A stretch of 64,000 bases of DNA from an uncultured Bacteroidales bacterium (GCA_900319925.1 ONQE01000001.1:8452-72451); one strand, 5' to 3'. Counted from the stretch's first letter, positions 3,309 to 51,313 are shown. The notes: generated by a model from the sequence alone, not told the origin. Numbers and translations: made by a program.

Positions 3309-6025
3309 CTATTGCTGCATCGTCGTCGGCTGCATATCGACACGAGTGTAGATTTCGGGGTGGAAGTACTTTTTCATGAATTCGACCATCTCTTTCTTGG
3401 TAACCGAATTGACGATGTTGTCGTATTCGGAAGGCGCGATAATCGGCTCATCTTGGATAACCTTGCCGCTGATATAGCCTAACCAGAAGCTGTTGGATTG
3501 GATGTTCTTGGCATGGGTGCTGGTCATCTGCTTCTTGATGAGGGCCATGGTCTTATTGTCCGGACCCTTGGCCTTGAAGTCGTTCAAAATCTTGAGGCTG
3601 GCAGTAGCCAATTTGTCTGTCTTCACCGGGTCGCAACCTAAGAGAATCATCAGGGTTATTTCAGGACGAGGCAGTTTGCCGGCGCTCATACTTACCGTCG
3701 GGGAATAGACATCGCCCATCTTTTCACGCACAATCTTGACGAACAGGATGTCTAATGCCTCACCGATCATATCGGTGATGATGGCGTTGCGGTAGCTCCA
3801 GTCGATGGGGTTGGTGATGAACATGCCCATCCAGCCCTGTTCCTCGGTACCGGCATAAACGGTTTGCGTAGAGGCCTTGTCGGGACGCGGTTTCAGTACG
3901 TTGAGGTTGTAGTTCTCTTTCTTACCGGATTCGGTCTTCAGGGAACCGAGATAGAGTTCCACAAATTGTTTCATCTCCGTCTCATCGTAGTTGCCCACGA
4001 AAAAGAAGGTAAAGTCAGCGGGATTGGCGAAACGCTCCTTGTAGATCTGCACGGCGCGATCGAAGTCAGTCTGTTTCAGATATTCCTCATCGTAAGAGAA
4101 GAACTGTTTCATATAGGGGTCGTTATTGTTAGCGGCTTCAACCAACTGGCCCAAGAACTGGTACATCGGTTGTGCTTGGAGCATCTTGATGCCCTCGCGG
4201 CTCTCGTCCATCATCAATTCGAAAGCGTTGGTGTCGATGCGCGGATTGGAGAAGAAAGCGTTAAGATATTGGAAGAAGAGATCCAGGTCTTTCGGGGAAG
4301 AAGAACCGTTGAAACCTTCTGACAACAGTTTGATTTCAGGATAAAGGCTTACGTTTTTGCCCTTCATCTTCTTCGACAGGGAGTTGTAATCCAGACCGGC
4401 TATACCGCCATGGTTGATAATGTCGCAAGCGAAATCAGCGGAAGCCAGATCTTTCACGGGATAGAGCGTTTTGCCGCCCTTGCTGATGGCGGTAAACAGA
4501 ATCTCATCGTTCTTATAGTCGGTTTTCTTCAGATAGACAGTGATGCCGTTAGAGAGCGTCCATTTCTCGGCACCTACGGTCTCGATTGTCTCCACATTTG
4601 TGATTTTGCCGGGCTTCAGTGTCTCCTTTTCGAGGATTTCTTGATCCTTATAGGTATCCACATAAGGTTGTACATTAGTTAAAGACTTGTCTTTCAATAT
4701 AGAAAGGATCTCGTCCTTGCCGGGAACGGTGACGCCTTCTTTGTCTGGGGCGGTGACAACGGCCACCATATTATCTTCCGTCACCCAATTCTTGGCCAAT
4801 GCATTGATTTCCTCCAAGGTAATATCTCCCATCAGCTTTTTGGCGTAATTGTTCTCACGTTTTGCACCCGGGATGGGGTCTTGATGCAGGAAGTTGTTGA
4901 CGTATTCGGAGGCGAAACTGGCAGATTCGGTCTTGTCAGCCTCCTTGGCCGCCTTGTCGTAGAGCTCCAGGAGTTCCTCTTTGGCACGATCGAGTTCGGT
5001 CTGCAGGAAACCGTATTTCAGCACGCGGTAGTCCTCTTGCAGGAGCGCGCGCAGCGCATCGGGAATGCGGTTTTCCTTAGCTATGGCTTCCAAAGCGTAA
5101 GCATCGGTGTTACCGTAAAAGTTGCCATATCCGCCGTTGGCACCCATGAACGGGCACTTCGGGTCCTGGGTCATTTCCGTAAAGCGGGCATCCAGCATGG
5201 TGTTATAGAGGTCGATGCAGAGTTGGTCGCGGAAGTCGCCGATGGTCTTCATCGCGGTGTGTTTGTGCTTGCGGATGAGCTGCCGAACATAGCTTTGATT
5301 TTGCCTTCCACTTCCGCCACGTTGATATCACCTACCACAATCACCGCCTGTAGGTCTGGACGATACCAATCGTTGTAAAAGTCCTTGATGACTTGGTAGT
5401 CAAAGGTTTGCAGAATGTCAAGCTTACCGATGGGCATACGGTCGGCGTAGCGGGAACCTTGCATCAGGATCGGCCAATACTCCTTGCGCATACGGTCCAC
5501 GGCACCGAGACCGAGGCGGTGTTCCTCGATAATGACACCGCGCTCCTCGTCAATTTCTTTGTTGTCGAAGAGCAGACAGGCAGCCCAGCCTCTCATGATT
5601 TTGAGGCCGAGGTCAATGTTGGTAGGATCGTCCGTCGGCATGGGAATCATATAGACCGTCTCGTCGAAGTAGGTGTTGGCGTTGAGGTCGGCACCGAACA
5701 CCACGCCCTTGCTGCGCAAGTGATCCACCACGCTATTGCCAGGGAAACCCTCGATGCCGTTGAAGGCCATGTGCTCGGTGAAGTGCGCCAGACCCTGCTG
5801 GTTATCGTTCTCCTGGTTGGAGCCGACATTCACCGCGAGACGGAACTCCACACGATTCTTCGGGTAGGTGTTCTTGCGGATATAATAGGTCAGACCGTTG
5901 TCCAATTTGCCGATGACCACGTTGGGGTCGGCCTTGATGGGATCGTTCAGGTTCAGGTCACCCTTCTGCGCGAAAACGGCCAACGCACAGATCATCGCCA
6001 TCATAAACAAAAATACTTTCTTCAT
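3309..6025 (-). pseudogene. M16 family zinc peptidase (pitrilysin-like), split into two ORFs
   Basis: ORF 5249-6025 (258 aa) has a signal peptide and the HxxEH motif (HFTEH). ORF 3309-5252 (647 aa) continues the M16 fold in a different frame. The frames meet near 5250-5290. Confidence 0.7.
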
Positions 6026-15008: not shown

Positions 15009-16223
15009 ATGAAAAAACTTTACATGCTCATCATGGTTGCCTTAATTGCTGCAACCGCAAACGCGCAGGTCGTCAAAATGGAGGTCGGTGCGAATCAGGA
15101 TCGTCAACTGCCCATCAAGGGCATTGTGAAAGCTGATAAGAGTGCCCCTGCAGAGGGTTGGCTTTTCTATCAGGACTATCTGGAGTCTTACTTTGGTGAG
15201 ACTTGTAACGATGGCAGCGCCTTCTATTTGAAGAGCGACTCCCTGGGTCTTTACGAGTACAGCGACGGCGATTTCGACCACGCTTTCGTCTATTCTGTCA
15301 GCCAGACTTACGATTTCGAATCCGACTTCTTCGAGTATGCATCTATGAGCGGCGATATCTCTTTCAAGTACAGCCCCTCTTTGAATGTTGACTCCGCCTG
15401 CGTTTACACGATGTATCTTCGTGACGAGCAGATGCCCGCCGATGTGATGGATACGCTCGTCATCGGTTTCGTCGCTGACGATGATGCCCCTGCTTATTAC
15501 TACACATCCTATCCGGAAAGCAGCTGCTTCATCAACTTTGACTGGGATCCCAACACCGGTGTTCAGCAGAATGCCCAGGTTGTCAAGATTCCCCTTGGCC
15601 CCAACGATGTCAGCGAGCCTGCTACTGAGCCCAATTCCTATTATCTGAAATTATTCGAGGTTCCGTTGAACATCACCAATGTGACCGACAAACGTTGGAA
15701 CATCGCCTATACCTTCATTTCCGGTGAGAATCCCGCTTTGAACGACACCCTTCATTCCTCTTTCTCCCTCTACACCTTCAACAGCAATGACAACGAAGGC
15801 TACTCTCCCGCTTCCAACAACCCGAACATTTGCAACAACAGAAGCCACGGCGGTATGGTGCGTTCTTTCAGCAACGGTGATGTTGACTACTACTATCCCA
15901 TGTTCTTCTTTGACAACTACAACTTCCCGAAGAATCTGGGTCTGAAGATTTCCTGCACCAACTGTGAAATCGTGAATGTCCCCGAGCTGGAGAAGAACAA
16001 CCCGACCGTCTATCCAAATCCTGCCACCAACAACTTCACTGTCAACCTCGGCAATGACGAGAAGGCTAACATCGAGCTCTTCAACATCGTTGGCCAAATG
16101 GTGTACAGCGAGACCATCACCGGCAGCGCCCAAGTGAACGTCGCCAACCTCCACAGCGGTGTTTATATGCTCAAGGTGAACCAAAACGGCAAGGCCTACA
16201 CCACCAAAGTGGTTGTGAAATAA
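15009..16223 (+). CDS. T9SS-sorted secreted protein of unknown function
   Basis: 404 aa. Signal peptide and a C-terminal Por secretion tail (VYPNPATNNFTV...GVYMLKVNQNGKAYTTKVVVK). Confidence 0.8.
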   Translation: MKKLYMLIMVALIAATANAQVVKMEVGANQDRQLPIKGIVKADKSAPAEGWLFYQDYLESYFGETCNDGSAFYLKSDSLGLYEYSDGDFDHAFVYSVSQTYDFESDFFEYASMSGDISFKYSPSLNVDSACVYTMYLRDEQMPADVMDTLVIGFVADDDAPAYYYTSYPESSCFINFDWDPNTGVQQNAQVVKIPLGPNDVSEPATEPNSYYLKLFEVPLNITNVTDKRWNIAYTFISGENPALNDTLHSSFSLYTFNSNDNEGYSPASNNPNICNNRSHGGMVRSFSNGDVDYYYPMFFFDNYNFPKNLGLKISCTNCEIVNVPELEKNNPTVYPNPATNNFTVNLGNDEKANIELFNIVGQMVYSETITGSAQVNVANLHSGVYMLKVNQNGKAYTTKVVVK

Positions 16224-16246
16224 TTTTGTCTGATACAATATTCTAT

Positions 16247-16280
16247 AAAAAAGGGATGGTCGAGAGACTGTCCCTTTTTT
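16247..16280 (+). terminator. Intrinsic terminator
   Basis: AAAAAAGGGA...TCCCTTTTTT stem ending in a T-run, 24 nt after the stop codon. Confidence 0.65.
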
Positions 16281-16329
16281 AGTTAGCAGTTAGTAGTTAG
16301 CAGTTAGCAGTTAGTAGTTAGTAGTTATA
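16281..16329. repeat. Heptamer array, family A (AGTTAGC/AGTTAGT), 7 units
   Basis: Hand-parsed. Starts immediately after the terminator T-run. Confidence 0.9.
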
Positions 16330-16344
16330 CACTAGCGAGAAACC

Positions 16345-16445
16345 CCATAACCCATAAGCCATAAGCCATAACCCATAACCCATAAGCCATAAACCATAAA
16401 CCTTAACCCATAAACCATAACCCTTAAACCTTAAACCTTAAACCA
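16345..16445. repeat. Heptamer array, family B (CCATAAC/CCATAAG/CCATAAA/CCTTAAC/CCTTAAA), 14 units plus a partial unit
   Basis: Hand-parsed. The last partial unit (CCA) directly abuts the folP ATG at 16446. Confidence 0.9.
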
Positions 16446-18229: not shown

Positions 18230-19555
18230 ATGCTTGCGCGATTTCTCCAGGAACTTCAACGTCTGGCGGGAGCTGACGCCCTGCGGAAATGCTACCTCGT
18301 GGCGGTGAGCGGCGGTGCGGATTCGACCGTCGCGGCTACACTCTTCCATGAGGCTGGACTGCATTTCGCGATGGCGCACTGCAACTTCCACCTGCGCGGC
18401 GCCGACTCCGACCGTGACATGCGATTCGTGCAGGAGATGGCCGAACGCTGGAATGTACCGCTCCTCGTCCGCGAGTTCGACACCTTCTCCGTACAGCGGG
18501 ACTCTGGGAAATCCATCGAGATGGTGGCCCGCGAGCTGCGATACGACTGGTTCTCGGAGATCTTGTCCGGCTACGACCACCTCGTGACCGCCCACCACGC
18601 CACCGACGCCGCCGAAACCCAACTACTCAACCTCACCCGCGGCACCGGACTGAGAGGGCTTTGCGGCATCCCGTCCGTGAACGGGAAAACCATCCGCCCG
18701 ATGCTGTCCTTCACGGCACAGGAAATCCGCCAATACGCTGAGGATCATCATATTGCATACGTTGAAGATTACACCAACCGCGACGAGCATATCGCCCGCA
18801 ACCGCATTCGCCACTCCGTCATTCCGCAATTGGAGGCGATCAATCCGCAGTTCCTACAGACCAACACGCGCACACGTCAAGTTCTGCAACGGCAATACGA
18901 ATATTATCAGAAACATATAGCGGCCGAGATACGGAATATCACCAGCAAAGAGGGTCGGCAGCTTCGCATTGACCGCCAGAAGCTGGCCCACAATGAGGAT
19001 AAAACCTTGATACTCTACGAAATACTGAACGAATACGGTTTCACCGCCGATGCTGTGGAGAAAATTGCGGCCAACGACCAGATGCCCGTAGGCAGATATT
19101 TTTCTTCCGATTCTCACAGATTGCTGATTGACAGGGAATTCTTGATTCTTCAACCTCAATTGGAAGAAAAGGAGCATATCCCGATTGAAATAGGCTCATT
19201 GGAAGACCTGAAAGCTTATTTTCAAGTTGAAGAATTTGATTATCAAGAGGGTATGGTCTTCGATAAAAACCCGAAGATCCTTTATATTCCGAAAGACAAG
19301 TTGACCTTCCCGCTGGAAATCCGGTCCTGGCAGCACGGCGACTCCTTCCACCCTCTTGGCGGAAAAGGCCGCCAGAAAGTCAGCGACTTTTTCACCGACC
19401 ATAAGATAGACCGCTTCGCCAAAGAACGCATCCGTCTTCTTTGTTCAGGCGACAACATACTATGGATCATCGATTTACGTTCCGATGAACGATTCAAAGT
19501 GACACCCAAAACCGAAAGGTACTACCGGTTAAGTCCATTGGCTGTTGGCCATTAA
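18230..19555 (+). CDS. tilS: tRNA(Ile)-lysidine synthetase
   Basis: 441 aa with the PP-loop SGGADSTV. Confidence 0.85.
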   Translation: MLARFLQELQRLAGADALRKCYLVAVSGGADSTVAATLFHEAGLHFAMAHCNFHLRGADSDRDMRFVQEMAERWNVPLLVREFDTFSVQRDSGKSIEMVARELRYDWFSEILSGYDHLVTAHHATDAAETQLLNLTRGTGLRGLCGIPSVNGKTIRPMLSFTAQEIRQYAEDHHIAYVEDYTNRDEHIARNRIRHSVIPQLEAINPQFLQTNTRTRQVLQRQYEYYQKHIAAEIRNITSKEGRQLRIDRQKLAHNEDKTLILYEILNEYGFTADAVEKIAANDQMPVGRYFSSDSHRLLIDREFLILQPQLEEKEHIPIEIGSLEDLKAYFQVEEFDYQEGMVFDKNPKILYIPKDKLTFPLEIRSWQHGDSFHPLGGKGRQKVSDFFTDHKIDRFAKERIRLLCSGDNILWIIDLRSDERFKVTPKTERYYRLSPLAVGH

Positions 19556-19579
19556 ACCTTAAACCCTAAACCTTAAACT
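19552..19579. repeat. Heptamer array, family B (TTAAACC x2, CTAAACC, TTAAACT)
   Basis: Four units. The tilS stop (19553-19555) lies inside unit 1, and the array ends 2 nt before the sufS ATG. Confidence 0.85.
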
Positions 19580-19581
19580 GA

Positions 19582-20784
19582 ATGAATAGAAACGATTTTC
19601 CCATATTGAATGAAAAGGTGTACGGCAAAACCCTCGTCTATTTAGACAATGCCGCCACCACGCAGAAGCCGCAAGTGGTGATTGACGCGCTGAGCGACTA
19701 CTACCGGCGCATCAACAGCAACATCCATCGCGGCGTGCACTGTCTCAGCCAGTTGGCGACCAACGAGTTCGAGCAGGCGCGCGAGGCGGTGCGGCAGTAC
19801 ATCCACGCAGCCTCGACACAGGAGGTCATTTTCACGCGCGGCGCGACCGAGTCCATCAATTTGGTGGCAGCCTCCTTCGGGCGCACCTACCTGCACGCGG
19901 GCGACGAGGTCATCGTTTCCGAAATGGAGCACCACTCGAACATCGTGCCGTGGGAGTTGGCCTGCGAGGACCGCGGCGCGACGTTGAAAGTGCTGCCGTT
20001 CAACGATAAAGGGGAGCTGATGCTCCGGGAATTGGAGACCCTGATAACCGAGCGCACCAAGATTGTGGCCGTGGCGCACGTCTCCAACTCGTTGGGCACC
20101 GTCAACCCGATTGAGGAGGTCATCCGCATCGCGCACAGCCACAATGTACCCGTCCTTATCGACGGAGCGCAGGCCGTAGCGCACTGTCCTGTGGATGTGC
20201 AGGCCCTCGACTGCGACTTCTACTGTTTCTCCGGCCACAAGATGTACGCCCCGATGGGTATCGGCGTAATGTACGGCAAAGCGCAGTGGCTCAACGAGAT
20301 GCAACCGTATCAAGGGGGTGGTGAGATGATCAAGGACGTCACCTTCGAGAAGACGACCTACAACGAGCTGCCCTACAAATTCGAGGCGGGCACCCCGTCG
20401 GTGGGCGATGTCATCGGGCTGCGCAAGGCCATCGAATACATCGGGGGCATCGGGCTGGCAAACATTGCTGCCCACGAGCAGGAGCTGTTGGCATACACCA
20501 CGGAGAAGCTGGCGAGAATCGACGGGATGCGCTTTATCGGCGAGGCGTCGCACAAAACGGGGGTCATCTCGTTCCTCGTGGGCGACACCCATCCCTACGA
20601 TATGGGCGTACTCCTTGACCATCAAGGTATTGCAGTTCGCACGGGACATCATTGCACCCAACCGGTGATGACCCATTTCGGTATTCCCGGCACCATCCGC
20701 GCCTCCTTTGCCCTTTACAACACCTTTGAGGAGGCGGATGCGCTCGTGGATGCGGTCGTGAAAGCGAAAAATATGCTTTCTTGA
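19582..20784 (+). CDS. sufS: Cysteine desulfurase, SufS family
   Basis: 400 aa. PLP-lysine context FSGHKMYAP and active-site RTGHHCTQP. Confidence 0.85.
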   Translation: MNRNDFPILNEKVYGKTLVYLDNAATTQKPQVVIDALSDYYRRINSNIHRGVHCLSQLATNEFEQAREAVRQYIHAASTQEVIFTRGATESINLVAASFGRTYLHAGDEVIVSEMEHHSNIVPWELACEDRGATLKVLPFNDKGELMLRELETLITERTKIVAVAHVSNSLGTVNPIEEVIRIAHSHNVPVLIDGAQAVAHCPVDVQALDCDFYCFSGHKMYAPMGIGVMYGKAQWLNEMQPYQGGGEMIKDVTFEKTTYNELPYKFEAGTPSVGDVIGLRKAIEYIGGIGLANIAAHEQELLAYTTEKLARIDGMRFIGEASHKTGVISFLVGDTHPYDMGVLLDHQGIAVRTGHHCTQPVMTHFGIPGTIRASFALYNTFEEADALVDAVVKAKNMLS

Positions 20785-20837
20785 TTAGTGATTAGTGATT
20801 AGTGATTGGTGATTTGTGACTTGTGATTTGTGATGAA
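20782..20837. repeat. Heptamer array, family C (TGATTAG x3, TGATTGG, TGATTTG, TGACTTG, TGATTTG, TGATGAA)
   Basis: Eight units. The first TGA is the sufS stop codon, and the last units contain the GTG/ATG start of the next gene. Confidence 0.9.
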
Positions 20838-23973: not shown

Positions 23974-24663
23974 ATGAGACTTATTAACAACATCTTATCT
24001 CTGTTTTACCCGAGGCTGTGCGCGGCTTGTGGTGATGCGTTGCAGCAGAATGAATCCTGTATCTGTCTGGATTGCATGCTGCATCTTCCTGAGACGCAAT
24101 TTCACAAAGAGCACTTCAATCCATTGCGGAGCGTGTTCGACGGGCGCGTGCCCGTGGAGGAGGTCTCTGCGCTGATGAGCTACAAGAAGGCGAACCGCAC
24201 GCAGAAAATCCTCCACAACCTGAAGTACAAGGGGCAGAAGGAGATCGGGGCGGTATTGGGCGAATACTTTGGCGGTCAGCTGATTACAGAGGAGCGATGG
24301 CGTGGCGTCCAGTACATACTCCCGATTCCGTTACATCCGAAGAAGCAGCGTAAAAGGGGGTACAACCAGAGCGAGTGGATTGCGATGGGGCTCTCCAAGG
24401 GGATGGGCATCCCCTACCTCACGGATGTGCTGGTGCGCACGGAGTTCACGGAGACGCAGACCCGGAAGAACCGGTTCGCGCGGTGGCAGAATGTGAAGGA
24501 GGTTTTTGCCGTGCAACATCCTGAGAAGGTGGAACATACGCATGTGTTGGTCTGCGACGATGTGCTCACGACCGGCGCCACCACGGAGGCGGCCATCCGC
24601 AAATTGCTGGAGGTTCCGGGGGTGCGGGTCAGCGTGGCGACCTTGGCGGCCACGACGCTATAG
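23974..24663 (+). CDS. comF: ComF family phosphoribosyltransferase-like protein
   Basis: 229 aa. N-terminal Cys pairs (CAACGD, CLDC) and a PRTase motif VLVCDDVLTTGAT. Confidence 0.75.
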   Translation: MRLINNILSLFYPRLCAACGDALQQNESCICLDCMLHLPETQFHKEHFNPLRSVFDGRVPVEEVSALMSYKKANRTQKILHNLKYKGQKEIGAVLGEYFGGQLITEERWRGVQYILPIPLHPKKQRKRGYNQSEWIAMGLSKGMGIPYLTDVLVRTEFTETQTRKNRFARWQNVKEVFAVQHPEKVEHTHVLVCDDVLTTGATTEAAIRKLLEVPGVRVSVATLAATTL

Positions 24664-24700
24664 AGACATTGTGTACTGTCTGTAACGGTTCAAAAAAAAG

Positions 24701-24860
24701 CTCTAACTCTTGTTCAACTCTTGTTCAACTCTGGTCTAACTCCGATGTAACTCCGATGTAACTCCGATACAACTCCGATCAAACTCCGATATAACTCCGA
24801 TACAACTCCGATCAAACTCCGATCAACTCCGATCAAACTCCGATCAACTCCGATACAGCT
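24701..24860. repeat. 11-bp tandem array (CCGATNNAACT type), about 15 units
   Basis: Hand-parsed. Three leading CTTGTTCAACT/CTGGTCTAACT units are followed by CCGAT(GT/AC/CA/AT)AACT units. Two units are 10 bp. Confidence 0.9.
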
Positions 24861-24930
24861 TCAGACATGAATCCCCTAACGGGGATGTTCTGCTCATATT
24901 ACATTCTAACCTATTAACCCCAAAAAATTG

Positions 24931-24938
24931 TACTTTTG
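24931..24938 (+). promoter_or_regulatory. -7 promoter box
   Basis: TACTTTTG, 4 nt before the ATG at 24943 and about 200 nt before the ATG at 25146. Confidence 0.5.
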
Positions 24939-24942
24939 CCGT

Positions 24943-25146
24943 ATGAAAAAGAGACTGAAACTTGGACTTATTGTTTGCGTATTATTGTGTATATCAACAT
25001 CTTGCGCAAGAAAGATCAGCGGTGCCACCCCGCACCGTCGCGACCGCAACTGCGGCTGCGAGAACCTTTACCCAATGTACAATTTACAATGTACAATGTA
25101 CAATTTACAATGTACCAATCACTATTCACTAATCACCAATCACTAA
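24943..25146 (+). CDS. Possible small lipoprotein-like upstream ORF (67 aa)
   Basis: MKKRLKLGLIVCVLLCISTSC looks like a signal peptide with a lipobox-like end. The C-terminal third is encoded by heptamer arrays. Its stop overlaps the next ATG (TAATG). Nearly leaderless relative to the promoter box, so coding status is uncertain. Confidence 0.25.
   Translation: MKKRLKLGLIVCVLLCISTSCARKISGATPHRRDRNCGCENLYPMYNLQCTMYNLQCTNHYSLITNH
25074..25115. repeat. Heptamer array, family D (AATGTAC/AATTTAC), 6 units
   Basis: Hand-parsed. Confidence 0.9.
25117..25144. repeat. Heptamer array, family C in reverse orientation (AATCACT ATTCACT AATCACC AATCACT)
   Basis: Four units running into the ATG at 25146. 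Confidence 0.85.
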
Positions 25147-25898
25147 TGAAGAAACTACTGTTACTGATAACCGCCGCCCTCATGCTCGCGGCGTGCGGCG
25201 ACCGGAAGACCTCCGTGGTCATCTCGGGCGATATCCAAGACGGTGGCAACAGCAAGATGGTGTTGGCGCTCATCACGACCGACGGATTGAACTTTCTGGA
25301 TTCCACCAACTTGAAGAACGGGCATTTTGAGTTCAAGGTCTCCTCCGACAACGAGCTGGTCAAGGAGCGCGATAACGCCCCGATGCTGTTCCAATTGTTC
25401 CTTTCTGACGACAACTGCCTGTCCACGATGGCCAAAAAGGGCGAGCGTCTGACCATCACCGCCGACGCGAAGGACTTGACCCGCACTTACCACATCTCCG
25501 GCGGCGAGGAGGCGGTGCTGATGCAGCAGTTAGACAGCGCGCTGACCGCCTTTGTGGTTCCTGTGGAGAAACTGCTCGAACCCTACAACGAGAACATTCA
25601 GAATGACTCGGTCCGGGCGGCCATCGAAGCCCAATATGTGCCGATGGTGCAACGGCATCGGCAATATTTAGAGGATTTCATTAAAGAGCACCCGAACAAT
25701 ATGGCCAGCTATATCGCTTTCTACCAGAGCTATAACCGGCGGACTTTCTTCGATCCGCTGCAGGATTTGGAGCTGCTGAAACAGATCAACGCCAACATGT
25801 CGAAGATATACCCCGAGAGCGAATATGTGAAAACGATGATTCATGTGGCGGAGATGATGGAGTCTCGGCAACCCGCCGAACCATCCACACCAAAATAA
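25146..25898 (+). CDS. Lipoprotein, DUF4369-like N-terminal domain
   Basis: MKKLLLLITAALMLAACGD (lipobox). The ORF-track extension back to 24936 is read-through of repeat DNA. Confidence 0.6.
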   Translation: MKKLLLLITAALMLAACGDRKTSVVISGDIQDGGNSKMVLALITTDGLNFLDSTNLKNGHFEFKVSSDNELVKERDNAPMLFQLFLSDDNCLSTMAKKGERLTITADAKDLTRTYHISGGEEAVLMQQLDSALTAFVVPVEKLLEPYNENIQNDSVRAAIEAQYVPMVQRHRQYLEDFIKEHPNNMASYIAFYQSYNRRTFFDPLQDLELLKQINANMSKIYPESEYVKTMIHVAEMMESRQPAEPSTPK

Positions 25899-49285: not shown

Positions 49286-51163
49286 ATGAGGGACTGTTAC
49301 GATATCATAGTGGTGGGTGCAGGTCATGCGGGATGCGAGGCCGCCGTTGTTTCGGCCAAGCTTGGGAACAGTGTTCTTCTCATTACGATGAACCTTGCCC
49401 TCGTGGCGCAGATGTCGTGCAACCCGGCTATTGGAGGTATCGCCAAAGGACAAATTGTTCGCGAAATAGATGCGTTGGGTGGTATGACGGGTATTGTGAC
49501 CGACCATACCATGATCCAGTACCGAATGCTCAACCGTTCGAAGGGACCCGCTATGTGGAGTCCGAGGGCACAGTGCGACAAAACAGCCTTTTCCTTGTAT
49601 TGGAAACATATTCTTGAAAATACTCCTAATCTCCATCTTCGTCAAGATACCGTGACCGAATTGTTATTTGATGCGGATAGGGTCATTGGCGTCAAGACGC
49701 AATTGGGTAAGACTGTTCTCTCAAAGAAAGTCATTCTCACTAACGGTACTTTTTTGAACGGACGTATTCATGTCGGGGAGGTTAATTTTTCCGGCGGTAG
49801 GATAGGGGAGAGTGCTTCTTTCATTTTGTCCGACCAATTGAAAGAGCGTGGCATCGTTACGAAAAAACTCAAAACCGGAACCCCTGTCCGAATTGATGGA
49901 CGGACTGTCGATTTCTCCAAAATGGAAGAACAACCCGGTGAAAACCCTCCGGGACGTTTTTCGTTCACCAATACCCCTCCTCTTCACCGGCAGCTCAGTT
50001 GCTGGATTACCTATACCAACGAGCAAGTACACCAAGTACTCCAAAAGGGTTTCGAAAAGTCCCCTATGTTCCAGGGACGCATCCAAGGTGTGGGTCCCCG
50101 TTATTGTCCGTCCATAGAAGATAAAATCGTTCGTTTCGCTGACCGTACACGTCACCAACTCTTTCTTGAACCGGAGGGACGCAATACAAATGAATATTAC
50201 CTCAACGGTTTTTCCTCCTCTCTTCCTGAAGATATTCAGGTGGAGGCCCTCCATCTGATTCCTGGATTGGAACAAGCCGAGATATACCGTCCGGGTTATG
50301 CCATCGAGTATGACTATTTCGACCCGATGCAGTTGCGTTATACGCTTGAATCGAAAATTATCGGAAACCTTTATCTTGCCGGACAGGTGAACGGAACCAC
50401 CGGTTATGAGGAGGCGGCGTGTCAAGGACTCATGGCAGGCATCAACGCACATCTCTCCCTTGCCGAAAAAGATCCTTTGATTTTGACCCGTTCACAGGCT
50501 TACATCGGTGTGCTCATTGACGATCTGATTACGAAAGGTGTCCAGGATCCCTATCGCATGTTCACTTCGCGAGCTGAATACCGCATTTTGTTGCGACAGG
50601 ACAATGCCGACCAAAGGCTTACTCCGATAGGCAATCAGTTGGGTCTGATTGATGCGGAACGCTATGAGGAATTTCTCCACAAATACGATCTGCAGACGCA
50701 AATCACCGACTACCTTCGAAGCCATACTACCCACTTTCAAACGCTCAATGAGCTGCTCGTTAAACGGGAAACTTCTCCCTTGAATCAAAATGTCAAATTG
50801 GAAAATGTATTGCTCCGTCCCCAAATCTCCATTCAGGATCTGATGGATTATGATCGTGAGTTTGCCTATTTCCTGCAACAGATTGGTGCCGATTCAGAAC
50901 AGATTACCAACGCCGAAACGAGTATAAAATACAGCAGCTATATTCAGAAGGAGGAAGAAATGGTGCAACATCTCACCAATCTCGATGCTATTAAGCTGCC
51001 TCTCGATTTGGATTATCCAAACATCAATTCTTTGTCGAAAGAGGCGCGTGAAAAGCTGTCCAAACTCCAACCCGCAAATCTGGGGCAAGCCTCTCGCGTC
51101 AGTGGTGTGAGTCCAGCCGATATTACCGCACTGATGATTTATCTTAGGACTTGTGATTTGTGA
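49286..51163 (+). CDS. mnmG: tRNA uridine 5-carboxymethylaminomethyl modification enzyme MnmG (GidA)
   Basis: 625 aa. FAD motif [12 protein letters not shown]. The last codons and the stop lie inside a heptamer array. Confidence 0.95.
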
Positions 51164-51313
51164 TTTGTGATTAGTGAGGTGTGATTTGTGATTTGTGAAT
51201 TGTGATTTGTGATTTGTGAATTGTGATTTGTGATTAGTGAGGTGTGATTAGTGAGGTGTGATTAGTGAGGTGTGATTAGTGAGGTGTGATTAGTGAGGTG
51301 TGATTAGTGGTAG
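51153..51313. repeat. Heptamer array, family C (GTGATTT/GTGATTA/GTGAGGT/GTGAATT), 23 units
   Basis: Hand-parsed and contains no C at all. It ends in six copies of the 14-mer GTGATTAGTGAGGT. The mnmG stop (51161-51163) is inside unit 2. Confidence 0.9.

What the first reader, a model, noticed from the sequence alone, without database searches (positions are those of the whole stretch)
24701..24860. An 11-bp tandem array (about 15 units) lies downstream of comF
The units are CCGATNNAACT, with only the two central positions varying (GT, AC, CA, AT). Three diverged units (CTTGTTCAACT) precede them, and two units are 10 bp. A period of 10-11 bp matches the DNA helical repeat, so the phased A-tracts (AAACT/CAACT) could produce intrinsic curvature. 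On the plus-strand RNA it is C-rich, has one G per unit, and is unstructured, which is rut-like. It shares the TAACT core with the reverse complement of family A.
Basis: partly seen in the sequence, partly recalled or inferred. Interest (0 to 1): 0.55.

Follow-up and report, generated by a model that had tools for sequence, protein, structure and literature searches.

The report
Copy-variable 11-bp repeat, dispersed family
The 11-bp tandem array after comF is real and changes copy number between strains, but it is one copy of a dispersed, dispensable intergenic repeat family (array plus a small hairpin) in uncultured rumen Bacteroidales, not a demonstrably curved-DNA or Rho-loading signal.

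Summary
The array exists as described: window 24703-24860 holds a partial unit, 3 diverged 11-mers and 11 CCGATNNAACT units, two of them 10 bp. The core AACTCCGAT occurs 11 times there against 0.63 expected in the window. Contigs that encode an identical ComF carry 9 different alleles (7-15 units), so it is a VNTR. Sister species have other arrays, mostly 7-mers, in the same spacer, and one has no array at all, so it is dispensable.

The window comes from an uncultured rumen Bacteroidales lineage. Short-period arrays fill about 10% of its intergenic DNA.

New here: a metagenome scan found the same 11-mer array at 11 or more unrelated loci. All show the same 5'->3' order of unit variants. Many end in the same 36-nt hairpin module (window 24852-24887). 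It is therefore a dispersed modular repeat, comparable to BOX, BIME or MIRU elements.

The family's orientation relative to neighbouring genes is mixed (3 sense, 5 antisense). That argues against a rut role that depends on the RNA strand. Predicted curvature is unremarkable.

Best reading: selfish or near-neutral interspersed repeat DNA, resized by replication slippage. How it disperses is unknown.

The parts
23974..24663 (+). ComF-family (phosphoribosyltransferase-like) gene. The array lies in its 3' flank.
   Evidence: TIGR00201 E=2.3e-25, full length, below the curated cut-off; Pribosyltran, DZR_2.
24683..24708 (+). 5' 'leader' TAACGGTTCAAAAAAAAGCTCTAACT, which includes the first partial unit.
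   Evidence: The same 26-mer with one mismatch precedes a second 11-mer array in L094/L119. It is the only copy in the window. Its status as part of the element is inferred from only two loci.
24709..24741 (+). Three diverged 11-bp units (CTTGTTCAACT x2, CTGGTCTAACT).
   Evidence: There are 3 to 6 of these units among strains. Equivalent cYkgtYY units open the array at the other loci.
24742..24849 (+). Ten CCGATNNAACT units (two are 10 bp). This is the copy-variable core of the VNTR.
   Evidence: Strains with identical ComF carry 3 to 11 of these units.
24850..24887 (+). Terminal unit CCGATAC fused to the conserved 3' module ACAGCTTCAGACATGAATCCCCTAACGGGGATG. The hairpin has stem ATCCCC/GGGGAT (24871-24876 and 24881-24886) and loop TAAC.
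   Evidence: The module is conserved next to arrays at several unrelated loci. Homology ends immediately after GGGGATG, where four different downstream contexts begin (alignment A1). It is the only copy in the window.
24931..24938 (+). TACTTTTG, a match to the Bacteroidetes -7 promoter consensus TAnnTTTG, 4 nt before the ATG of the small ORF.
   Evidence: The sequence is seen. TAnnTTTGCCGTATG is conserved in the sister species. The promoter assignment rests on the published consensus recalled from memory; it is an inference.
24943..25146 (+). Small conserved lipoprotein-like ORF (MKKRLKLGLIVCVLLCISTSC...RDRNCGCE). It is the first gene downstream of the array.
   Evidence: conserved in L003-L016. 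No family hit.
25073..25147 (+). Heptamer arrays (CAATGTA x6, AATCACT x4) running up to the ATG (25146) of the DUF4369 lipoprotein gene. They are another instance of the lineage's intergenic arrays, not part of the 11-mer element.
   Evidence: Absent from most strains with identical ComF. DUF4369 assignment.

Best explanation
Window 24683-24887 is one copy of a dispersed, modular intergenic repeat of uncultured rumen Bacteroidales. It consists of a polar array of 11-bp units (consensus AACTCnnnTnn; older diverged units at the 5' end, homogeneous CCGATNNAACT units at the 3' end) closed by a 36-nt hairpin module.

The array behaves as a VNTR. Copy number changes by gain and loss of whole units or blocks of units, most simply by replication slippage or unequal exchange. 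This happens faster than point substitutions accumulate in the flanks.

The element is dispensable, and its orientation relative to neighbouring genes is not fixed. It is one of many short-period arrays that fill about a tenth of the intergenic DNA in this lineage. I therefore read it as selfish or near-neutral interspersed repeat DNA, not a dedicated signal for comF.

At this locus it forms the comF 3' flank and lengthens the DNA upstream of the small-lipoprotein promoter by 75-165 bp depending on the strain. Any termination or promoter effect would be incidental.

Shown: the anatomy, the polymorphism, the dispersal, the shared unit order, the 3' module boundary, the mixed orientation and the dispensability. 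Inferred: slippage as the mechanism, absence of a sequence-specific function, and the way copies spread.
For: Array anatomy.

VNTR behaviour: 13 contigs with a 100% identical ComF protein carry 9 alleles, with 3-6 diverged units and 4-12 CCGAT units. L085 and L086 share their flanking haplotype but have 4+10 and 6+6 units. The window and L082 differ only by two units.

Dispensability and turnover: in 17 sister species (ComF 82-93% identical) the same spacer holds unrelated 7- and 8-mer arrays or other hairpin modules. In L014 the spacer is only about 20 nt.

Lineage-wide habit: arrays make up 9.5% of intergenic DNA in the window and 11.4% in L001-L017, against 1-2% in more distant relatives. 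Period 7 dominates and period 11 is a minority.

Dispersal: the metagenome scan found arrays of the same unit at 11 or more loci with unrelated flanks and neighbouring genes.

Common descent: every locus shows the same succession cYkgtYY -> ccgatgt/gc -> ccgatac -> ccgatc(a).

Shared 3' hairpin module with a sharp boundary and four different downstream contexts.

Orientation relative to flanking genes: 3 sense, 5 antisense, the rest divergent.

No Rfam family matches. Published parallels are long SSRs with 5-11-nt units and heptamer repeat assemblages in Bacteroidetes whose relatives have shorter, repeat-free spacers (PMC4679880).
Against: Across about 150 units at 11 loci, nine of eleven positions of the CCGAT-type unit hardly vary, and AACTC plus the T at position 5 hold in all unit classes. 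Variation is concentrated at positions 6-7. This could reflect selection for a binding site and not only homogenisation by turnover.

No target-site duplication, empty site or 5' terminal module was found, so mobility is not demonstrated. The copies could in principle have spread by recombination.

I could not show several copies within one genome. The 64-kb window has one copy, and the other loci come from metagenome contigs that were not assigned to a species.

In the array-rich genus no array lies in any of 20 convergent spacers. This hints at an association with promoter-containing spacers, though those convergent spacers are short and the sample is not independent.

Copy numbers come from short-read assemblies of repeats close to read length, so some alleles may be collapsed.
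Confidence: 0.6

Rival explanations
1. Rho-dependent terminator or insulator. In the comF transcript the tract is a long C-rich, G-poor, unstructured RNA with a CUCC every 11 nt and TAA stops. It would load Rho and end comF transcription before the lipoprotein promoter.
For: Composition is 34% C and 11% G, in the top 0.4% of 100-nt windows. The + strand RNA folds weakly, at -13.2 kcal/mol per 158 nt. No canonical hairpin-plus-T-run terminator follows comF, while one does follow the gene ending at 16223. Among all co-directional intergenic arrays, 39 are C-rich and 18 G-rich on the sense strand. The idea that regularly spaced YC dimers suit the Rho hexamer comes from general knowledge, not from a test here.
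Against: The same array family is antisense to flanking co-directional genes at 5 loci and sense at 3. L014 has no spacer element, so comF read-through into the next gene is tolerated. Copy number ranges from 7 to 15 units with no visible constraint. The low structure is only a composition effect, z = +0.99. The 39:18 bias comes from non-independent orthologous arrays.
Confidence: 0.15
2. Array of binding sites for a DNA-binding protein, with one site per helical turn as in iterons or centromere-like sites. It might derive from the origin or regulatory region of a small rolling-circle replicon, where iterons sit next to a stem-loop.
For: The period of 10-11 bp is about one helical turn. AACTC plus T are invariant while the two central positions vary freely. 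A hairpin always adjoins the 3' end. A roughly 6.2-kb circular contig (L154; L142 is 93-94% identical) encodes a rolling-circle Rep (phrog_20614, E=1.1e-12). It carries 3x AACTCCGATGC just upstream of the promoter of a DUF6266-like gene. A gene with a homologous N-terminus lies 390 nt downstream of the array in L177.
Against: No Rep, Par or other candidate partner gene lies near the array in the window. Arrays of up to 17 units with free copy-number variation are unusual for regulatory sites. The hairpin module is absent from IMG/VR. The L154 link rests on three units and a 41-residue similarity. The element is dispensable in sister species.
Confidence: 0.13
3. Intrinsically curved DNA upstream of the small-lipoprotein promoter, acting as an upstream activating element whose strength varies with copy number.
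For: The period is near the helical repeat. The array lies 71-235 bp upstream of a -7-like box. The AA-wedge model ranks it in the top 1% of genomic segments. Arrays are absent from 20 convergent spacers in the genus.
Against: There are no A-tracts of 4 or more. The Trifonov and De Santis models place it at the 13th and 26th percentile. End-to-end/contour is 0.80-0.95, against 0.22-0.43 for phased A6 controls. An 11-bp period drifts out of phase with 10.5 bp. Positions relative to promoters differ between loci.
Confidence: 0.05
4. A purely local microsatellite that arose at this spot by slippage and has no relatives elsewhere.
For: It is a VNTR in a lineage where arrays arise in many spacers. 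There is only one copy in the window.
Against: The same unit, the same order of variants and the same 3' hairpin module occur at 11 or more unrelated loci.
Confidence: 0.03

Closest known systems
Long simple sequence repeats (LSSRs) with 5-11-nt units in prokaryotic genomes (Mrazek et al. 2007, as summarised in PMC4679880)
   Same: It is a head-to-tail array of a unit of 11 nt or less. It is non-coding and much longer than chance allows. It sits in a genome where heptamer arrays dominate, and slippage is the presumed mechanism.
   Different: The same array, with the same internal order of variants and a terminal hairpin, recurs at many loci. A locally born SSR would not be expected to do this.
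TAACTGA heptamer direct repeats of Beggiatoaceae, cyanobacteria and some Bacteroidetes (MacGregor 2015, PMC4679880)
   Same: One specific short unit recurs as intergenic direct-repeat sets at many loci. Relatives have shorter, repeat-free spacers. The units share a TAACT core. Function is unknown in both cases.
   Different: The unit here is 11 nt, not 7. This array is not next to a start codon, unlike most TAACTGA sets, and its orientation to genes is mixed. It also has a hairpin module and a polar order of variants.
GGGNATC quadruplex-forming heptamer repeats of Xanthomonas and Nostoc (Rehm et al. 2015, PMC4692102)
   Same: Both are a genome-wide dispersed family of one short unit with variable copy number, found mostly between co-directional ORFs.
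   Different: That family is G-rich, forms G4 structures and prefers four units. The array here has neither G-tracts nor C-tracts, and its copy number ranges from 7 to 17.
Pneumococcal BOX elements (boxA-[boxB]n-boxC), E. coli BIMEs and mycobacterial MIRU-VNTRs (from general knowledge)
   Same: These are interspersed intergenic elements built of modules, with an internal module present in variable number and hairpin-forming ends. They are dispensable and polymorphic between strains.
   Different: The internal unit here is far shorter (11 bp against 45 bp for boxB and 40-100 bp for MIRU). Only the 3' terminal module is consistently conserved. The number of copies per genome is unknown.
Plasmid R1 parC centromere and other iteron arrays (from general knowledge: two sets of five 11-bp direct repeats bound by ParR)
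   Same: Both are tandem direct repeats of 11 bp, about ten copies, one per helical turn.
   Different: There is no parMR or rep gene nearby. The array is chromosomal, present at many loci, and its copy number varies freely.

Membership tests
VNTR / long simple sequence repeat (unit 5-11 nt) | Head-to-tail copies of a short unit, far more than chance allows | tested here: met
   TRF gives period 11, 11.1 copies, score 149. There are 11 exact AACTCCGAT copies in the array; the whole window has 13 against 0.63 expected.
VNTR / long simple sequence repeat (unit 5-11 nt) | Copy number differs between closely related strains | tested here: met
   Nine alleles (7-15 units) occur among 13 contigs encoding an identical ComF. 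Identical flanks occur with different arrays. Caveat: these are short-read assemblies.
VNTR / long simple sequence repeat (unit 5-11 nt) | Non-coding location, with unit length not a multiple of 3 | tested here: met
   The array lies between the comF stop (24663) and the next ORF (24943). No + strand ORF of 40 aa or more overlaps the array; the only overlapping ORF in the list is a 40-aa one on the - strand.
Interspersed mosaic repeat (BOX / BIME / MIRU-like) | Homologous copies at many unrelated intergenic loci | tested here: met
   Eleven or more loci with different flanks and neighbouring genes show the same succession of unit variants.
Interspersed mosaic repeat (BOX / BIME / MIRU-like) | Several copies within one genome | tested here: inconclusive
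   The 64-kb window has one copy. L166 has two adjacent copies. The other loci are metagenome contigs not assigned to a genome.
Interspersed mosaic repeat (BOX / BIME / MIRU-like) | Conserved terminal modules flanking a variable-number internal module | tested here: inconclusive
   The 3' hairpin module is conserved with a sharp boundary at several loci but missing at others (L138, L140, L160, L112). A 5' leader is shared by only two loci.
Mobile element (MITE, or an element moved by an IS200/IS605- or IS91-type transposase) | Defined ends with target-site features, empty and filled sites, or a cognate transposase | tested here: not met
   The 5' junctions fall at different phases of the unit. 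No target duplication, terminal inverted repeat or transposase was seen. No clean empty site was found, because sister species have unrelated spacers.
Rho utilisation (rut) site | C-rich, G-poor, poorly structured RNA of about 70-100 nt | tested here: met
   34% C and 11% G, top 0.4% of windows. Minimum free energy -13.2 kcal/mol for 158 nt.
Rho utilisation (rut) site | The C-rich strand is the transcribed sense strand wherever the element occurs | tested here: not met
   Among co-directional contexts, 3 loci are sense and 5 antisense.
Rho utilisation (rut) site | A Rho-dependent transcript 3' end in or just after the tract | not testable with these tools
   This needs Term-seq or RNA-seq with and without bicyclomycin in an uncultured organism.
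Intrinsically curved DNA (phased A-tracts) | A-tracts of 4 or more bases phased at about 10.5 bp, giving strong predicted curvature | tested here: not met
   Only A2-A3 runs are present. The fragment sits at the 13th-26th percentile in two wedge models, and every model is far from the phased A6 controls (parameters from memory).
TAACTGA-type heptamer direct repeats (MacGregor 2015) | Unit TAACTGA, with sets lying within a few nt upstream of start codons in forward orientation | tested here: not met
   The unit is 11 nt and shares only TAACT. The array ends 82 nt before the nearest ATG. Orientation is mixed across loci.
Iteron or centromere array (parC type) | Tandem 10-11-bp direct repeats next to the gene of the protein that binds them | tested here: not met
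   The repeats are present, but the neighbours are comF, a small lipoprotein ORF, a DUF4369 lipoprotein and guaA.

The most novel reading that the evidence does not exclude
The 11-mer array plus its 3' hairpin could be the cis-acting site (iterons next to a stem-loop) of an undescribed single-strand or rolling-circle type mobile element, or of its DNA-binding protein, in rumen Bacteroidales. Chromosomal copies with a fixed 3' end and ragged 5' ends would then be footprints of one-ended transposition or integration. The invariant AACTC(N3)T core would be the protein contact, repeated once per helical turn. The lead is a roughly 6.2-kb circular Rep-encoding contig with three identical units in front of a DUF6266-like gene, and a related gene beside a chromosomal array.
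Probability: 0.12. Interest if true: 0.65.

Novelty: new member of a known kind. Interest (0 to 1): 0.35.

Why it matters
The result takes this tract off the list of candidate regulatory signals for comF. It also shows that an abundant but uncultured rumen Bacteroidales lineage carries an unusually large load of short-period intergenic arrays, about 10% of its intergenic DNA. At least one of those arrays is a dispersed, modular family with a recognisable internal 'barcode' of unit variants.

Such arrays are practical strain markers (VNTR typing in metagenomes). They are likely causes of contig breaks and chimeric joins in rumen MAGs. They are also candidate hotspots for rearrangement; two loci show an array fused to a truncated gene.

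If the invariant core turns out to be a protein-binding site or the cis site of a mobile element, the family would offer a way into the still unexplained question of why some bacterial genomes accumulate 7-11-nt repeat arrays.

Tried and rejected
- **Rfam:** no match around the array (E up to 1) or in five other array loci.
- **Sigma-70 promoter and terminator scan:** nothing in or next to the array.
- **RNA structure:** neither strand differs from shuffles, z = +0.99 and -0.35. The pairing of the two flanks in the 291-nt fold was not compensated in strain variants, so I dropped it.
- **Curvature:** modelled with three wedge tables and unremarkable.
- **Coding:** the 40-aa ORF on the - strand (24714-24836) is rejected, because unit gains and losses shift its frame.
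- **Phage origin:** IMG/VR has only two-unit matches to the 11-mer pattern, in unrelated contexts, and no hairpin module.
- **CRISPR-like reading** of the repeats downstream of the arrays in L150 and L177: rejected on inspection. They are irregular hairpins upstream of a promoter.
- **Other dispersed modules** seen in relatives (GTAGAGACGCA hairpin, CACACTGCGCT module, GATTCGCTG module): absent from the window.
- **Literature:** searches found no description of these arrays in rumen Bacteroidales.

Full report
**1. The observation**

Reading the sequence confirms the finding almost to the base. After the stop codon of a ComF-family ORF (23974-24663; TIGR00201 E=2.3e-25 over the full model) come 39 unique bases that end in an A8 run. 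Then follow:
- CTAACT (24703-24708);
- two CTTGTTCAACT units and one CTGGTCTAACT (24709-24741);
- ten CCGATNNAACT units (24742-24849), whose only differences are the two central positions (GT, GT, AC, CA, AT, AC, CA, C-, CA, C-; the two C- units are 10 bp);
- a terminal CCGATACAGCT (24850-24860).

TRF scores the tract at period 11, 11.1 copies, score 149. The nine-base core AACTCCGAT occurs 11 times in the array and twice elsewhere in the 64 kb. Dinucleotide shuffles give 0.63 occurrences for the whole window. This is not chance.

**2. Where the window comes from, and what the neighbourhood shows**

ComF relatives were found only in metagenome-assembled genomes of uncultured rumen and gut Bacteroidales. 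Contigs encoding exactly the same ComF protein are common in rumen assemblies.

Thirteen such contigs carry nine different alleles of the array, with 3-6 of the diverged 5' units and 4-12 CCGAT-type units. Some pairs share their flanking haplotype yet differ in the array: L085 and L086 have 4+10 and 6+6 units, and the window and L082 differ by two units. The array therefore changes faster than its flanks. It is a VNTR. One caveat applies: these are short-read assemblies of a repeat close to read length.

In 17 sister species (ComF 82-93% identical) the same spacer, between comF and a conserved small lipoprotein ORF, contains quite different material. It holds arrays of 7- or 8-mers (TTGACCx, CATAACC, CCTCAGT, yyCTAACC, CCTAAAC) or other hairpin modules. 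In L014 the comF stop is followed after about 20 nt by the next gene's promoter-like box. The 11-mer array is therefore dispensable, and the spacer turns over completely between species.

**3. A habit of the whole lineage**

With a simple codon-model gene call, short-period arrays (3 or more copies) occupy 9.5% of intergenic DNA in the window and 11.4% in the 17 sister-species loci. In more distant relatives the figure is 1-2%. Period 7 dominates; periods 8, 10 and 11 are minorities.

Several heptamer arrays run right up to start codons (16345-16445, 19552-19578, 20782-20834, 25117-25147). The literature already describes this class. It includes long SSRs with 5-11-nt units, among which heptamers are commonest, and assemblages of TAACTGA and other heptamer repeats in a few Bacteroidetes whose relatives have shorter, repeat-free spacers (PMC4679880). 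Another dispersed heptamer family, GGGNATC, is described in PMC4692102. I found no paper on these arrays in rumen Bacteroidales.

**4. The new point: the array is not unique to this locus**

A scan of the metagenome collection for two adjacent units returned 88 stretches. Most are two-unit matches in unrelated organisms. About 25 contigs, mostly from rumen assemblies, carry true arrays of the same unit at 11 or more loci whose flanks and neighbouring genes are unrelated to comF.

The arrays are collinear. Each begins with cYkgtYY-AACT units (cttgttc, ctggtct, ccggtcc, ccggtct), continues with ccgatgt or ccgatgc, then ccgatac, then ccgatca / ccgatc-, and ends in CCGATAC. Across all unit classes the bases AACTC and the T at unit position 5 are invariant. 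The variation sits at positions 2-4 (between classes) and 6-7 (within the CCGAT class). A shared 'barcode' of this kind is best explained by common descent of whole arrays, not by independent growth at each site.

At several unrelated loci the array is closed by the same module, ACWGCTWCAGASATGnATCCCCTrACGGGGATG (window 24852-24887). Alignment A1 shows that homology stops immediately after GGGGATG, where four different downstream sequences begin. L166 has two array-hairpin units in tandem. In L094/L119 a truncated hairpin is followed by TTGAAAAAAAAGCTCTAACT and a second 11-mer array. With the preceding TAACGG, this matches the window's own 5' flank, 24683-24708.

The 5' junctions otherwise differ and fall at different phases of the unit. 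I saw no target duplication, inverted terminal repeat or transposase. The element is thus a dispersed, modular intergenic repeat with a variable-number internal module. In kind it is comparable to pneumococcal BOX elements, BIMEs or MIRUs (general knowledge). How it spreads is unknown.

**5.

*Curvature.* The units have only A2-A3 runs. With the Bolshoy-Trifonov and De Santis wedge tables (recalled from memory) the 158-bp fragment has end-to-end/contour ratios of 0.91 and 0.95, at the 13th and 26th percentile of genomic segments. Phased A6 controls give 0.22-0.43. Only the crude AA-wedge model ranks it in the top 1% (0.80), still far from the controls.

*Rut-like.* The description is correct. 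The tract is 34% C and 11% G, in the top 0.4% of windows. Its RNA folds to only -13.2 kcal/mol, against -36.7 for the complementary strand. That is a composition effect, z = +0.99. The family lies sense to co-directional neighbours at three loci (comF, L112, L124) and antisense at five (L138, L140, L111, L168, L102), with divergent contexts elsewhere. L014 shows that comF can do without any spacer element. A terminator role that depends on the RNA strand cannot be what defines the family. It may still occur at this locus, where no canonical terminator follows comF.

*TAACT core.* The core is indeed shared with AGTTAGC (reverse complement GCTAACT). TAAC, AACT and TAACC are modestly over-represented among array units, although orthologous arrays inflate that statistic.

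**6. Other readings considered**

The one-turn period, the invariant core and the adjacent hairpin resemble iterons next to a stem-loop. L154 (L142 is 93-94% identical) is a roughly 6.2-kb circular contig. It encodes a rolling-circle replication initiator (phrog_20614, E=1.1e-12) and has three AACTCCGATGC units immediately upstream of the promoter of a DUF6266-like gene. A gene with a homologous N-terminus (44% identity over 41 residues) lies 390 nt downstream of the array in L177, and in L106 an array abuts a 3' remnant of that gene.

This lead is thin. The window has no partner gene, the hairpin module is absent from IMG/VR, and free copy-number variation up to 17 units is unlike regulatory sites. 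I keep it as the most novel reading that the evidence does not exclude.

In the array-rich genus arrays occur in 23% of co-directional spacers, 30% of divergent spacers and 0 of 20 convergent spacers. The convergent spacers are short, and more distant relatives do have arrays in convergent spacers, so this is inconclusive.

**7. Verdict**

The functional interpretations are at best incidental. The tract is a copy-variable member of a dispersed array-plus-hairpin repeat family, in a lineage whose intergenic DNA is unusually rich in short-period arrays. It is a new member of known kinds (long SSR / VNTR, and interspersed mosaic repeat). Its interest lies mainly in genome architecture, strain typing and assembly, unless the invariant core proves to be a protein or mobile-element site.

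Noticed in passing
window 25073-25147; L081-L090 about 4100-4230; L008 4870-4902: The CAATGTA and AATCACT heptamer arrays upstream of the DUF4369 gene occur only in the window, L081 and L082 haplotype. In the other strains with identical ComF, the same place holds the 3' end of the small lipoprotein ORF plus a hairpin. A different species (L008) has the same heptamer arrays and the same DUF4369 N-terminus, which suggests a recombinant segment.
   Followed up: partly
window 24931-25146: A small ORF (67 aa, lipoprotein-like signal LLCISTSC, conserved HRRDRNCGCE motif) is conserved across the sister species. Its ATG lies 4 nt after a conserved TAnnTTTG box, so the mRNA may be leaderless. Its stop overlaps the next gene's start (TAATG). 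It has no Pfam or NCBIfam hit.
   Followed up: partly
window 16224-16445, 19552-19578, 20782-20834: Whole spacers between co-directional genes consist of heptamer arrays that run up to the start codon (AGTTAGC x6.7 then CCATAAA x14.4; TTAAACC x3.9; TGATTAG x7.6). The first follows a canonical hairpin-plus-T-run terminator. No TAnnTTTG box is visible between the arrays and the start codon.
   Followed up: partly
window 51144-51309: The longest array in the window has units GTGAGTT/GTGATTA (period 14/21/42), with 60 G against 1 C on the + strand. It begins 20 nt inside the 3' end of the upstream + strand ORF call.
   Followed up: no
L003 4937-5062; L007 4923-4961; L010 5051-5117; L011 5043-5120; L013 5035-5116: Tandem 8-10-nt units (CGATGAAAAA, ACGATGAA) contain an ATG and end in the true start codon of the DUF4369 gene. 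The translation start region itself is therefore tandemly reiterated.
   Followed up: no
L123 11366-11659; L166 5735-6059; L152; L119; L159; L094: One 11-mer array locus lies about 75 nt upstream of a divergent tRNA-Ser(CGA). On its other side the cargo differs between contigs, judged from N-terminal sequences only: Cas3/HD-like, restriction-enzyme-like, AAA-ATPase-like and HTH proteins. This looks like an integration or defence-island hotspot, or like chimeric assembly at the repeat.
   Followed up: partly
L154 (whole, 6418 nt with terminal overlap); L142: This is a circular contig of about 6.2 kb with a rolling-circle Rep, a DUF6266-like gene and a 1.5-kb non-coding region full of C-rich 11-12-nt repeats. 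Three AACTCCGATGC units lie just upstream of a TAnnTTTG box.
   Followed up: partly
L112/L134 compared with L171; L106 compared with L177: Arrays coincide with rearrangement breakpoints. In L171 and L106 the array is joined directly to the 3' part of a gene that is intact in the sister contig. This reflects either deletions at arrays or assembly chimeras.
   Followed up: no
L001 3324-3350; L002 about 4700-4735 and 4960-4990; L005 about 4725-4755; L004, L012, L152, L159, L166, L176: Other dispersed intergenic modules occur in the same genus. One is a 10-bp-stem palindrome GTAGAGACGCA(N4-6)TGCGTCTCTAC directly after the comF stop. Another is a CACACTGCGCTWCGCTTGTRTGG...TTGCACTRCGTGCG module. Neither is present in the window.
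   Followed up: partly
L002 4816-4950: Two 11-mer arrays lie in inverted orientation back to back ((TGCCATACTGT)n followed by (TATGGCATCAC)n), forming a long imperfect palindrome in the comF spacer of a sister species.
   Followed up: no
L013 4779-4807: An intergenic array of CCCTAAA, identical to the plant-type telomere repeat unit. This is probably coincidental.
   Followed up: no
L179, L183, L184, L186 (IMG/VR): Related viral contigs carry a cluster of TCCGAT-containing direct repeats (AGTCCGAT.., ACTCCGAT.., AACTCCGATAAAACTCCGAT). It may be an arm-type recombinase binding region. It is unrelated to the rumen family.
   Followed up: no
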